From the human T2T-CHM13v2.0 reference genome, Homo sapiens: a DNA stretch of 64,000 nt. Shown in pieces: positions 771-3,806 of this stretch (position 1 is the stretch's first letter; each line of letters opens with the position of its first letter). The position numbers and the translations under genes were made by a program. Location of the stretch: assembly GCF_009914755.1 (NCBI RefSeq), contig NC_060927.1. One strand, 5' to 3'. The notes under the pieces were generated by a model. That model did not search any database. It worked only from the letters and a program-made list of their open reading frames with translations, and was not told the DNA's origin.

Positions 771-1542
771 ATTTAAAATGACTGAAGTCATACCAAGTAT
801 ATTATCTGAGGACAATGGAATAAAACTACAAATCAGTAGCAGAAAGATAATAGTCTCCAAACACCCAGAGCCTAAACAACATGCATTTAAATAATTTATG
901 GGATAAAGCAGGAGCTACAAGATAAATTTTAAAAATACACTAAGCTGAATAAAAATAAAAATGAACAACTCAAACTTTGTGGAACACAGTGAAAGCATGC
1001 TGAAATGAAAATTTTTAGCACTAAAAAAGAAAAAAATCTCAAATCAATCTAATCTCGCACCTCAAGAATCTAGAAAAAGAAGAGTGAAATAAACCCAAAA
1101 CAAGCAGAAGAAAGATAATAAGAAAGATGAAGACAGAAATTTATAAAATTGAAAACAGAAAAATAGTAGAGCAAATCAGTGAAACAAAGAGAAGTTTCTT
1201 AAAAAAAAATCAATAAATATCTAAAAGCCTCTAGCAAGAGTGACAAAGAAATAAAAAGAAGACACAAATTACCAGTAACAGGAATGAAACAGAAGATATT
1301 ACTACAGACATCAAAAGGATAATAAGGGAATATTCTGAATAACTCCACATACAGAAATTTGACAATTTAGAGATTATAGATTAATTCCTCAGAAAACTCA
1401 AACTACCACAACTCACCCAATATGAAATAGATCATTTAAATAGCCCCACAACTATTAAGGAAATTGAATTAATAATTTTTTAAACCCACCAAAAGGAACA
1501 CCCCAGGACAAGAAAGCTTCAACAGGTAATTCTATTCAACAT
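771..1542 (+). repeat. Left arm of 770-bp inverted repeat (partner 3037-3806)
   Basis: Manual alignment to the reverse complement of 3037-3806 shows 4 substitutions and a 2-nt poly-A length difference. Confidence 0.97.
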
Positions 1543-2250
1543 TTAAAGAAGAAATAATGTTCATTCTACATAATCTTTTTCCAGAAAATAGTAGTGAATA
1601 CTTTTTTGTTCATTTTATGAAGCTACTATTACCCTGATTCTAAAACATGAAAAAAAAAACACAAAAAAGAAAAGCACAGATCAAAATTCCTGATGAACAC
1701 AGAAACAAAAATTCTCAACAAAATATTAGCAAATAGAATCTAGCAATACATGAAAAGAATTACATGCCATGACCAAGTAGAGATTATTCTAAGGATGTAA
1801 ATCTGCTTTAGTATTCAAAAATCAATCAATGTAATCCACCATTTGAACAAACTAAAGAAAAAAAATCACATGCTTATATAAATTGAAGGAGAGAGATTGG
1901 TTTATACAACTCAACACCTATTAATGATATTTTTTAAATCTCCCAGCAAAGAATAGAGAACATTCTTAACTTCATAGAGAGCATCTACCAAAAAACCTTA
2001 CAGTTAACATTATACTTAATGATGAAAAATTGAATGTTTTCCCTTAATGTTTGGAGCAAAATAAGGATGTCCACTATCATCACTTTTATTCAACATAAAA
2101 GTTCTAGCCAGTGAAACAAGATAAGTAAAAGAAATAAAAGATGCACAGAGTAGAAAGGAAGAAATAAAAAATGTTCTTATTTTCATATTGTCAGTGTTGA
2201 AAATCCAAAATAATCTTTAAAAAGAAAAAAAAAAGAAGAAATGAAACTAA

Positions 2251-2551
2251 ACTGGGCAAAGTGGCTCCCACCTGTAATCCCAGCACTTTGGGAGGCCCAG
2301 GTGGCCGGATCACTTGAGGTCAGGAGTTCGAGACCAGGCTGACCAACATGGTGAAACCCCCATCTCTACTAAAAATACAAAAATTAGCTGGGTGTGGTGG
2401 CAGGCGCCTATAATCCCAGCTACTCAGGAGGCTGAGGCAGGAGAATTGCTTGAATATGGGAGGCAGAGATTACAGTGAGCCAACATCATGCCACTGCACT
2501 CCACCGTGGACAGCAGAGCAAGACTTTGTCTCAAAAAAAAAAGAAAAGAAA
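2251..2551 (+). mobile_element. AluS element
   Basis: Dimeric Alu with A-tail; TSD aaatgaaactaa at 2239-2250 / 2552-2563. Confidence 0.95.
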
Positions 2552-2667
2552 AAATGAAACTAATAATGAGTTCAGTAACGTGGCAGAATATAAGATAAAT
2601 ACATTTAAAATAAAATATATTTTATATATTGACAATGAATACATTAATATCAAAATTACAAACACAG

Positions 2668-2962
2668 GTTGAGCATGGTGGCTCACACCTGTAATCCCAG
2701 CACTCTGGGAGGCCAAGGCGAGCAGATCACTTGAGGTCAGGAGTTCAAGACCAGCCTGGCCAACATGATGAAACCCGGTCTGTACTAAAAATACAAACAT
2801 TAGCCAGGAGTTGTGGTGGGCGCCTGTAATCCCAGCTACTCAGGAGGCTGAGGCAGGAAAATCGCTTGAATATGGGAGGCAGAGGTTGCAGTAAGCCGAG
2901 ATAGTACCACTGCACTCCAGCCTGGGCATCAGAGCAAGACTCGATCTCAAAAAAAGAAAAAA
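2668..2962 (+). mobile_element. AluS element
   Basis: Dimeric Alu consensus motifs and A-tail. Confidence 0.95.
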
Positions 2963-3036
2963 ATATATAAATGCAATGGTATTTACAATCACTAAAAAAT
3001 TTAAGTGCTTAGGTATAAATTTAATAAAACATGTAC

Positions 3037-3806
3037 ATGTTGGATAGAATTACCCATTGAAGCTTTCTTGTCCTGGGGTGTTCCTTTTGGTGGGTTTAAA
3101 AAATTATTAATTCAATTTCCTTAATAGTTGTGGGGCTATTTAAATGATCTATTTCATATTGGGTGAGTTGTGGTAGTTTGAGTTTTCTGAGGAATTAATC
3201 TATAATCTCTAAATTGTCAAATTTCTGTATGTGGAGTTATTCAGAATATTCCCTTATTATCCTTTTGATGTCTGTAGTAATATCTTCTGTTTCATTCCTG
3301 ATACTGGTAATTTGTGTCTTCTTTTTATTTCTTTGTCACTCTTGCTAGAGGCTTTTAGATATTTATTGATTTTTTTAAGAAACTTCTCTTTGTTTCACTG
3401 ATTTGCTCTACTATTTTTCTGTTTTCAATTTTATAAATTTCTGTCTTCATCTTTCTTATTATCTTTCTTCTGCTTGTTTTGGGTTTATTTCACTCTTCTT
3501 TTTCTAGATTCTTGAGGTGCGAGATTAGATTGATTTGAGATTTTTTTCTTTTTTAGTGCTAAAAATTTTCATTTCAGCATGCTTTCACTGTGTTCCACAA
3601 AGTTTGAGTTGTTCATTTTTATTTTTATTCAGCTTAGTGTATTTTTAAAATTTATCTTGTAGCTCCTGCTTTATCCCATAAATTATTTAAATGCATGTTG
3701 TTTAGGCTCTGGGTGTTTGGAGACTATTATCTTTCTGCTACTGATTTGTAGTTTTATTCCATTGTCCTCAGATAATATACTTGGTATGACTTCAGTCATT
3801 TTAAAT
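3037..3806 (-). repeat. Right arm of 770-bp inverted repeat (inverted copy of 771-1542)
   Basis: Direct reverse-complement match: 3806 pairs with 771 and 3037 with 1542. Confidence 0.97.

What the first reader, a model, noticed from the sequence alone, without database searches (positions are those of the whole stretch)
771..3806. 770-bp near-perfect inverted repeat made from a decayed L1, with a gene-conversion-like mismatch pattern; candidate inversion polymorphism
Seen: 3037-3806 is the reverse complement of 771-1542, with only 4 substitutions and a 2-nt poly-A slip (~99.5% identity), around a 1494-bp spacer. The host L1M is riddled with stops, so this is a local duplication and not two independent insertions. 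Three of the four substitutions lie in the innermost 20 bp (1523, 1524, 1536), including CA in one arm against TG in the other, as expected from opposite-strand decay of one ancestral CpG. The other ~750 bp carry a single substitution (1278). Inference: the duplication is old, possibly as old as the adjoining L1PB1, and its core has been repeatedly homogenised by arm-to-arm gene conversion or recurrent inversion. Established: close, highly identical inverted repeats mediate NAHR inversions. The spacer here is colinear with the L1, so this haplotype has the ancestral orientation.
Basis: partly seen in the sequence, partly recalled or inferred. Interest (0 to 1): 0.85.

Follow-up and report, generated by a model that had tools for sequence, protein, structure and literature searches.

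The report
Old L1-made inverted repeat kept identical
A 770-base inverted repeat in a gene-poor stretch of human chromosome 3 seems to have been made as a by-product of a jumping-gene insertion tens of millions of years ago, yet its two arms are still almost identical, which points to continual copying between them.

Summary
The inverted repeat is real. Arms 771-1541 and 3038-3806 differ by 4 substitutions and a 2-nt A-run slip, and are the only such pair in the genome.

New here: the right arm is the 5' end of one 2.6-kb block (3038-5631) inserted into the old L1M. Seven other L1M copies support that it resumes at about 5632, next to 3037. The block reads:
- inverted copy of L1M 771-1541;
- 0-4 nt filler;
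- a 5'-truncated L1P 3' end (3811-4290);
- 1.33 kb with one paralogue, on chr21, ending at AATAAA plus a short A-run.
It sits at a TTTT/A site with a possible 12-bp target duplication.

This matches L1 insertions with an inverted duplication on the reciprocal break end, seen in L1 clones and tumours. The chr21 clock (138/1319 differences) dates the insertion to roughly 35-50 Myr. About 81 arm differences are expected and 4 are seen, so arm-to-arm gene conversion is required. The inner 19 bp (3 differences) looks like an unconverted edge.

No evidence for an inversion polymorphism was found. Primate orthologues were out of reach, so a recent duplication remains possible (about 15%).

The parts
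1..3037 (+). 5' part of an old L1M (ORF2 region). It hosts the left arm and the spacer and is interrupted at 3037.
   Evidence: Other L1M copies align colinearly from window 7 to about 2189, then 2557-2666 and 2981-3037, at 65-75% identity over the long alignments and up to about 81% over the short ones.
771..1541 (+). Left arm, the original copy and part of the colinear L1M.
   Evidence: L1M copies run straight through both ends.
1542..3037 (+). Spacer: L1M sequence in ancestral orientation carrying two Alu insertions (about 2252-2558 and 2662-2972).
   Evidence: (D1/D2 direct repeats).
3026..3037 (+). Putative 5' target-site duplication AAAACATGTACA, preceded by T (bottom-strand TTTT/A endonuclease site).
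   Evidence: Reading and the alignment to L1M copies. It matches 5621-5632 at 9 of 12 positions, which is weak in A/T-rich DNA.
3038..3806 (-). Right arm: inverted copy of 771-1541, starting directly after the L1M break.
   Evidence: At most 1 nt (3 of 4 nt) of microhomology at the priming site (3034-3037 against 1542-1545).
3807..3810 (.). 0-4 nt of filler, or diverged L1P, at the arm/L1P joint.
   Evidence: Alignment to two L1P copies.
3811..4290 (+). 5'-truncated L1P 3' end with its AATAAA and A/T-rich terminus. It has an internal deletion of about 106 bp at 3927/3928.
   Evidence: 87-90% identity to the 39 other copies scored across this part, with the C2 copy showing a 106-bp gap. L012 matches up to 4294.
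4291..5619 (+). 1.33 kb with a single paralogue on chr21: a 3' transduction or co-retrotransposed RNA. AATAAA lies at 5600-5605.
   Evidence: C21:38790048-38790873 and 38791201-38791732; 89% and 87%; chr21 has no L1 upstream and no A-run downstream.
5621..5632 (+). Short A-run plus the putative 3' target-site duplication.
5632..6108 (+). The L1M resumes here, contiguous in L1 coordinates with 3037.
   Evidence: 69-76% to the 39 other L1M copies scored; in L025, L026, L030, L031, L032 and L033, and approximately in L015, the matches to <=3037 and >=5617-5671 are adjacent or overlap. L031 overlaps by 14 bp.

Best explanation
About 35-50 million years ago a primate L1 (L1P) RNA, carrying 1.33 kb of sequence from a chr21 locus at its 3' end, integrated by endonuclease-dependent target-primed reverse transcription into an old L1M on chr3. 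The upstream ('reciprocal') break end was resected. Its 3' overhang, ending at 3037, folded back about 1.5 kb (less if the two spacer Alus came later). It annealed by 1-3 nt of microhomology next to 1541 and primed DNA synthesis back to 771. The resulting 770-nt inverted copy was then joined to the 5'-truncated L1 cDNA. That made the inverted repeat. Since then, intrachromosomal arm-to-arm gene conversion has kept the arms almost identical, possibly with occasional crossovers that flip the spacer. Only the innermost 19 bp have escaped and diverged at about the neutral rate. Shown: the repeat itself, the composite insert and its position in the L1M, the chr21 paralogue and its divergence, and the direction of two of the four differences. 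Inferred: that the arm was made in the same event as the L1P insertion, the fold-back mechanism, and therefore the gene conversion. No function is implied. No gene or functional element is annotated in the window.
For: (1) Geometry. The L1M is contiguous across 3037|~5632 in seven other L1M copies, so 3038-5631 is a single insert. The right arm is its 5'-most segment. It starts at the base after the L1M break or putative 5' TSD and ends 0-4 nt before the L1P 5' end. (2) The insert has retrotransposition hallmarks: an L1P 3' end; a unique tail whose only paralogue, on chr21, lacks both an upstream L1 and a downstream A-run, whereas the chr3 copy gains an A-run 14-19 nt after a shared AATAAA; a TTTT/A site; and a 9/12 TSD candidate. 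(3) The same architecture is reported from induced-L1 clones and tumours: an L1 insertion plus an inverted duplication of genomic DNA on the reciprocal end, with 2-bp microhomology and a TSD-like duplication retained. It is explained there by self-annealing of the resected 3' overhang (passages read, bioRxiv 10.1101/2024.12.14.628481). (4) Clock. The tail differs from chr21 at 138 of 1319 aligned sites (K2P 0.098 and 0.138). The arms differ at 4 of 769 (K 0.0052), where about 81 differences would be expected. (5) The inner 19 bp hold 3 differences, with 2.0 expected at 10.5%. (6) At 1278 and 1536 the right arm carries the state of 13/14 and 6/7 other L1M copies, so those changes happened in the original arm and are not copying errors.
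Against: The timing is inferred from position only. No orthologue from another primate, and no second human haplotype, could be examined. The TSD is weak (9/12 in A/T-rich sequence), and the terminal A-run is only 6 nt. No source L1 sits at the chr21 locus. The tail therefore needs either a lost source allele or a template jump. The arms show no GC enrichment (0.296-0.298, against 0.275-0.305 in neighbouring L1M), so there is no GC-biased-conversion footprint. The outer edge is perfectly identical to its last base while the inner edge is not. Under equal edge escape, zero differences in the outer 19 bp has a probability of about 0.12 (my own arithmetic's rate). In the preprint, inverted duplications involved small hairpins, whereas here the loop is 0.9-1.5 kb. 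As far as I recall, sustained conversion holding a sub-kb autosomal repeat at 99.5% for tens of Myr is above genome-wide interlocus conversion rates.
Confidence: 0.7

Rival explanations
1. Recent inverted duplication, within the last few million years and unrelated to the L1P insertion. A replication template switch or break repair copied 771-1541 and happened to place the copy exactly at the old L1M/L1P joint. The arms are alike simply because they are young.
For: Near-identity is the usual sign of youth. The core has 1 substitution in about 750 bp. The junctions carry 0-4 nt of microhomology or filler, as in replicative events. In the long-read survey read, inverted duplications are the most common inversion class (277 events, median 284 bp), mostly with 1-15 bp of microhomology. 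There is no GC-bias footprint.
Against: The copy must land, with no loss or gain of bases, at the single position separating the L1M break from the L1P 5' end. I put that coincidence at roughly 1 in 1,000 for a site within a few kb (my estimate). Three differences in 19 bp are far too many for a young copy: about 0.06 per arm would be expected at 0.3% divergence. At least the 1536 change is in the original arm, not in the new copy. That weakens the 'error-prone synthesis near the junction' rescue. CA against TG needs two changes at one dinucleotide.
Confidence: 0.15
2. Same old origin, but the inverted segment was reverse-transcribed from RNA: true twin priming by the top-strand 3' end on a sense transcript of the local L1M, rather than DNA fold-back synthesis.
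For: The layout (5' TSD, inverted segment, direct L1 segment, poly-A, 3' TSD) is that of twin priming. The same event may already have used more than one template: the L1P, the chr21-derived tail, and an internal L1P deletion.
Against: Classical twin priming inverts part of the same L1 RNA. Here the inverted piece is the neighbouring L1M, 99.5% like the left arm and 69-74% like other L1M copies. An RNA from within 2.3 kb would have to be on hand. The DNA self-annealing model has experimental examples.
Confidence: 0.1
3. Assembly or polishing artefact that created the second arm or made the two arms alike.
For: None found. It is listed because only one assembly was seen.
Against: The arms (0.77 kb) and the whole structure (3 kb) are far shorter than the reads used for this kind of assembly (general knowledge). 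Both junctions are clean. Five arm-specific differences are preserved.
Confidence: 0.02

Closest known systems
L1 insertions with an inverted duplication of genomic DNA on the reciprocal break end ('remodelling of ORF2p-induced DSB ends'; bioRxiv 10.1101/2024.12.14.628481, passages read)
   Same: An inverted copy of upstream flanking DNA lies between the reciprocal breakpoint and the 5' end of a polyadenylated, 5'-truncated L1. The inversion junction has very short microhomology. A TSD-like duplication is kept.
   Different: Those cases are somatic or experimental and, as described, involve small hairpins. This one is a fixed germline example with a 0.9-1.5 kb loop, a 770-nt copy and a 3'-transduced tail. 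It has since evolved for tens of Myr.
Twin priming (5'-inverted L1 insertions; Ostertag and Kazazian 2001, seen only as a reference)
   Same: The order and orientation of segments within the TSDs are the same, and the inverted part is primed from the top-strand 3' end.
   Different: The inverted part is not L1P RNA but the neighbouring genomic L1M.
Sex-chromosome palindromes kept >99% identical by arm-to-arm gene conversion (abstracts of PMC8327919, PMC8981503 and PMC3723533 seen in the listing)
   Same: Inverted arms around a spacer, with identity far above what their age predicts.
   Different: The arms here are 0.77 kb rather than the large arms of those palindromes. The locus is autosomal, gene-free and made of dead L1. 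No GC enrichment is seen. Cross-species conservation is untested.
Inverted-repeat-mediated (NAHR) polymorphic inversions (InvFEST HsInv set; PMC3961182 passages, PMC6748972 supplement)
   Same: Short, highly identical inverted repeats flank a small unique segment, which is the known substrate for recurrent inversion.
   Different: No evidence of two orientations exists here. The only chr3 entries in the 45-inversion table lie at 41.3 and 109.2 Mb.

Membership tests
Endonuclease-dependent L1 (TPRT) insertion with 3' transduction | L1 3' end in sense orientation, with its polyadenylation signal, at the 5' side of the extra sequence | tested here: met
   3811-4290 is 87-90% identical to the 39 other L1P 3' ends scored across this part. 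The L1P match runs to 4290-4294.
Endonuclease-dependent L1 (TPRT) insertion with 3' transduction | The extra sequence is a copy of unique DNA found elsewhere, ending at a poly-A signal with an added A-tail | tested here: met
   There is one paralogue only, on chr21. AATAAA is shared. The A-run is present only in the chr3 copy, where homology ends. The A-run is short (6 nt).
Endonuclease-dependent L1 (TPRT) insertion with 3' transduction | A source L1 lies directly upstream of the transduced sequence at the donor locus | tested here: not met
   No L1P lies within 1.5 kb upstream at chr21. This needs a lost, never-fixed source allele, or an end-to-end template jump instead of read-through.
Endonuclease-dependent L1 (TPRT) insertion with 3' transduction | Target-site duplication and a TTTT/A cleavage site | tested here: inconclusive
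   3026-3037 matches 5621-5632 at 9/12, and a T precedes the AAAA. L031 aligns both sides to the same 14 bp. The DNA is A/T-rich, so chance similarity is not excluded.
L1 insertion with inverted duplication on the reciprocal end | An inverted copy of upstream flank lies between the reciprocal breakpoint and the L1 5' end, with the original kept in place | tested here: met
L1 insertion with inverted duplication on the reciprocal end | The copy is made in the same event as the L1 insertion | not testable with these tools
   This needs orthologous loci of other primates. It is inferred here from position only.
Twin-priming 5' inversion | The inverted segment derives from the same L1 RNA as the direct segment | tested here: not met
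   The inverted segment is 99.5% identical to the adjacent L1M and 69-74% to other L1M copies. The direct segment is L1P.
Inverted repeat or palindrome under concerted evolution | Arm-to-arm divergence far below that expected from the age of the duplication | tested here: met
   The arms differ at 4/769 and the co-inserted tail differs from its chr21 paralogue at 138/1319. This is conditional on the age inference.
Inverted repeat or palindrome under concerted evolution | Arms cluster by species, not by position, across species | not testable with these tools
   No primate genomes are held. The own-genome search says it has no relatives here.
Inverted repeat or palindrome under concerted evolution | GC enrichment of the arms relative to their flanks | tested here: not met
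   GC is 0.296 and 0.298 in the arms and 0.275-0.305 in adjoining L1M. Power is low for 0.77 kb.
NAHR inversion polymorphism | Both spacer orientations segregate in the population | not testable with these tools
   Only one haplotype was seen, and it is in the ancestral orientation. The locus is not in the tables searched.
Recent replicative (template-switch) inverted duplication | Junction-proximal mutations lie in the newly made copy | tested here: not met
   At 1536 (inner cluster) and 1278 the new copy has the L1M-typical base and the original arm has the change. The 1523/1524 pair is undecidable.

The most novel reading that the evidence does not exclude
A sub-kilobase, gene-free autosomal inverted repeat, born as a side-product of an L1 integration, has evolved in concert for about 40 Myr at a conversion rate well above the genome-wide interlocus rate. 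Its homology is eroding from the spacer side, and its 1.5-kb spacer flips recurrently, an inversion too small and too well hidden by its 770-bp arms to be in current catalogues. Because the co-inserted chr21-derived tail dates the birth independently, the locus would give a calibrated estimate of arm-to-arm conversion and inversion rates without selection.
Probability: 0.2. Interest if true: 0.65.

Novelty: new member of a known kind. Interest (0 to 1): 0.5.

Why it matters
If the cross-species test confirms it, this locus is a fixed germline fossil of a rearrangement so far documented, in what I found, in induced-L1 clones and tumours: L1 integration with a fold-back inverted duplication. That would show that L1 seeds inverted repeats in the germline. 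It would also be a dated, selection-free case of long-term concerted evolution in a very short autosomal repeat. It could be used to estimate conversion rate, the minimum homology needed at the edges, and the chance of inversion. If the test fails, it is an ordinary young duplication with an odd position.

Tried and rejected
1. Classical twin priming was rejected: the inverted piece is the neighbouring L1M, not L1P.
2. Deletion-plus-inverted-copy replacing the L1M 3' part was rejected: the L1M resumes at about 5632 with no loss.
3. Error-prone synthesis as the cause of all inner mismatches was weakened: 1536 and 1278 changed in the original arm.
4. I first took TG to be ancestral at 1523/1524. 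I withdrew this: the copies show TG x4, TA x2 and CA x1, which fits an ancestral CpG.
5. GC content as a sign of biased conversion showed no difference.
6. I looked for the locus in inversion and SV tables: PMC6748972 (12 of 14 files searched), PMC10150506, PMC11794170, PMC12350169 (file cut when stored; only unrelated numbers matched) and PMC12350158. Nothing was found. T2T number prefixes came from the hub's coordinates. The GRCh38/GRCh37 prefixes were my own liftover from memory, so these negatives are weak. The main text of PMC3961182 has no chr3q23 entry.
8. A great-ape comparison paper requested by a remembered id is not held.
9. A 34-base junction word was scanned in genome contigs and viral contigs, in case contaminant primate DNA carried it. 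There were no matches.
10. The own-genome search states that it has no relatives here, so no orthologues could be fetched.
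Full report
THE OBSERVATION

The inverted repeat exists as described. The repeat finder gives 771-1207 / 3370-3806 (437 nt, 100%) and 1203-1545 / 3034-3376 (343 nt, 99%). 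A local alignment lists mismatches at 1278, 1523, 1524, 1536 and 1543, plus a 2-nt gap in an A-run. In the window's own genome, only these two places were 99-100% alike among the 40 matches scored (2,750 first-look candidates). The other 38 are L1M copies at 69-74% identity. So this is a local duplication of an already old, decayed L1M. Five other L1M copies align straight through both ends of the left arm, which makes the left arm the original and the right arm the copy.

WHAT SURROUNDS IT

- Right of the right arm. 3807-4290 is the 3' end of a much younger primate L1: 87-90% identity to the 39 other copies scored across this part, with the L1 terminus at about 4290. It has an internal deletion of about 106 bp at 3927/3928, judged from one colinear copy on C2.
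- The next 1.33 kb (4291-5619). This has exactly one paralogue in the genome, on chr21 (C21:38790048-38790873 and 38791201-38791732, 89% and 87%), split there by a later Alu.
- The chr21 locus. It has ordinary unique DNA upstream, with no L1, and no A-run downstream. The chr3 copy stops 14-19 nt after a shared AATAAA and is followed by a short A-run. The polarity is therefore chr21 to RNA to chr3.
- The L1M beyond. From about 5632 the old L1M resumes at 69-76% identity to the 39 other L1M copies scored.
- Contiguity of the L1M. In L025, L026, L030, L031, L032 and L033, and approximately in L015, the parts matching window <=3037 and window >=5617-5671 are adjacent. In L031 they overlap by 14 bp.

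Hence 3038-5631 is one insert in the L1M. It consists of the inverted L1M piece, 0-4 nt of filler, the L1P 3' end, the chr21-derived tail and an A-run. The target reads T|AAAACATGTACA, a TTTT/A site on the other strand. The 12-mer recurs, degraded, after the A-run (9 of 12). Mismatch 1543/3036 lies in this 12-mer, so the copied arm is 771-1541 <-> 3806-3038.

MECHANISM OF ORIGIN

The inverted copy begins at the base after the upstream break and ends at the 5'-truncated L1. That is the twin-priming layout, but the inverted part is neighbouring genomic DNA rather than L1P RNA. It is therefore not classical twin priming.

A preprint on induced L1 expression and cancer genomes describes this outcome (bioRxiv 10.1101/2024.12.14.628481; I read the passages returned, not the whole text or figures). 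[quoted passage not shown] It attributes this to self-annealing of the resected 3' overhang, which then primes DNA synthesis.

Here the primer end ...GTACA (3037) would pair with 1542-1545 at 3 of 4 positions. Synthesis would run from 1541 to 771.

An RNA-templated variant cannot be excluded. In it, the top-strand end primes on a local sense transcript.

The chr21-derived tail is most simply a 3' transduction from a source L1 allele that was never fixed. An end-to-end template jump is the alternative. Either way it is one event.

AGE AND MAINTENANCE

The tail differs from its chr21 paralogue at 138 of 1319 aligned sites (K2P 0.098 and 0.138). In my recollection that is about the human-New World monkey level, so roughly 35-50 Myr. 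The conversion to years is recalled, not computed.

Arms made then and left alone would differ at about 81 of 769 sites. They differ at 4 (K 0.0052). If the arm was born with the insertion, repeated arm-to-arm gene conversion is required.

The inner 19 bp carry 3 differences, against 2.0 expected at 10.5%. The remaining 750 bp carry one. The clustering gives P=5.9e-5 for a named edge and 0.006 for any window. If CA/TG is one event, P=1.8e-3 and 0.13. This fits an edge that conversion tracts rarely reach. The outer edge shows no such decay; I estimate P of about 0.12 for that, so it is not a strong objection.

DIRECTION OF THE CHANGES

- At 1278, 13 of 14 other L1M copies have the right arm's T.
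- At 1536, 6 of 7 have the right arm's C.
- At 1523/1524 the copies show TG x4, TA x2 and CA x1, plus one misaligned row.

At least two differences therefore arose in the original arm. This argues against explaining the inner cluster by sloppy synthesis of the new copy.

AGAINST THE READING, AND WHAT IS MISSING

- The same-event claim rests on position alone.
- The TSD is weak and the A-run short.
- The donor locus has no L1.
- The arms show no GC enrichment (0.296 and 0.298, against 0.275-0.305).

A recent duplication that happened to land on the L1M/L1P joint therefore stays possible, at about 15%. It needs a positional coincidence that I estimate at roughly 1 in 1,000. It also needs three changes within 19 bp in a short time.

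INVERSION POLYMORPHISM

The spacer is in the ancestral orientation in this haplotype. Repeats of this size and identity are known substrates for recurrent inversion (PMC3961182, abstract and passages; PMC6748972). I found no record of an inversion or other structural variant here:
- PMC6748972: 12 of 14 supplementary files searched; the chr3 entries are at 41.3 and 109.2 Mb only.
- PMC10150506: 2 files.
- PMC11794170: 1 file.
- PMC12350169: 1 file, cut when stored; only unrelated numbers matched.
- PMC12350158: 1 file.

These are weak negatives. A 1.5-kb flip between 770-bp arms is hard to call, some files were truncated, and my GRCh38/GRCh37 number prefixes were lifted over from memory. Preprint supplements are closed.

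VERDICT

The repeat is best explained as a fixed germline fossil of an L1 integration with a fold-back inverted duplication, kept alike since by gene conversion. Both processes are known kinds. The combination, with a built-in clock from the co-inserted chr21-derived tail, makes a neat and easily tested case rather than a new category. No function is suggested: no gene or functional element is annotated in the window.

Noticed in passing
window 4291-5619; L018/L019 (C21:38790048-38791732): A 1.33-kb stretch with a single paralogue on chr21, ending at a shared AATAAA. It is a 3' transduction or co-retrotransposed RNA whose donor site carries no L1 today. The chr21 copy has since acquired an Alu with a long T-run between the two matching parts.
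   Followed up: partly
window 3927/3928: The L1P fragment lacks about 106 bp relative to a colinear copy on C2 (15088198-15088775). This could be a later deletion or an internal template jump during the same reverse transcription.
   Followed up: no
L011 (C18:43.53 Mb), L012 (C6:45.15 Mb), C19:34882970-34883666: Three of the best-matching L1P copies carry the segment equivalent to window 3811-3931 in the opposite orientation to the 3' segment. These look like ordinary twin-priming 5' inversions.
   Followed up: no
window about 2252-2558 and 2662-2972: Two Alu elements in the same orientation lie inside the spacer, 83-87% alike and 416-417 bp apart. If they are younger than the L1P event, the fold-back loop was only about 0.9 kb at birth. 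They are also a possible substrate for an Alu-Alu deletion.
   Followed up: no
window 6262-6897: Two further Alus lie back to back just after the resumed L1M. The L1M match ends near 6100-6108.
   Followed up: no
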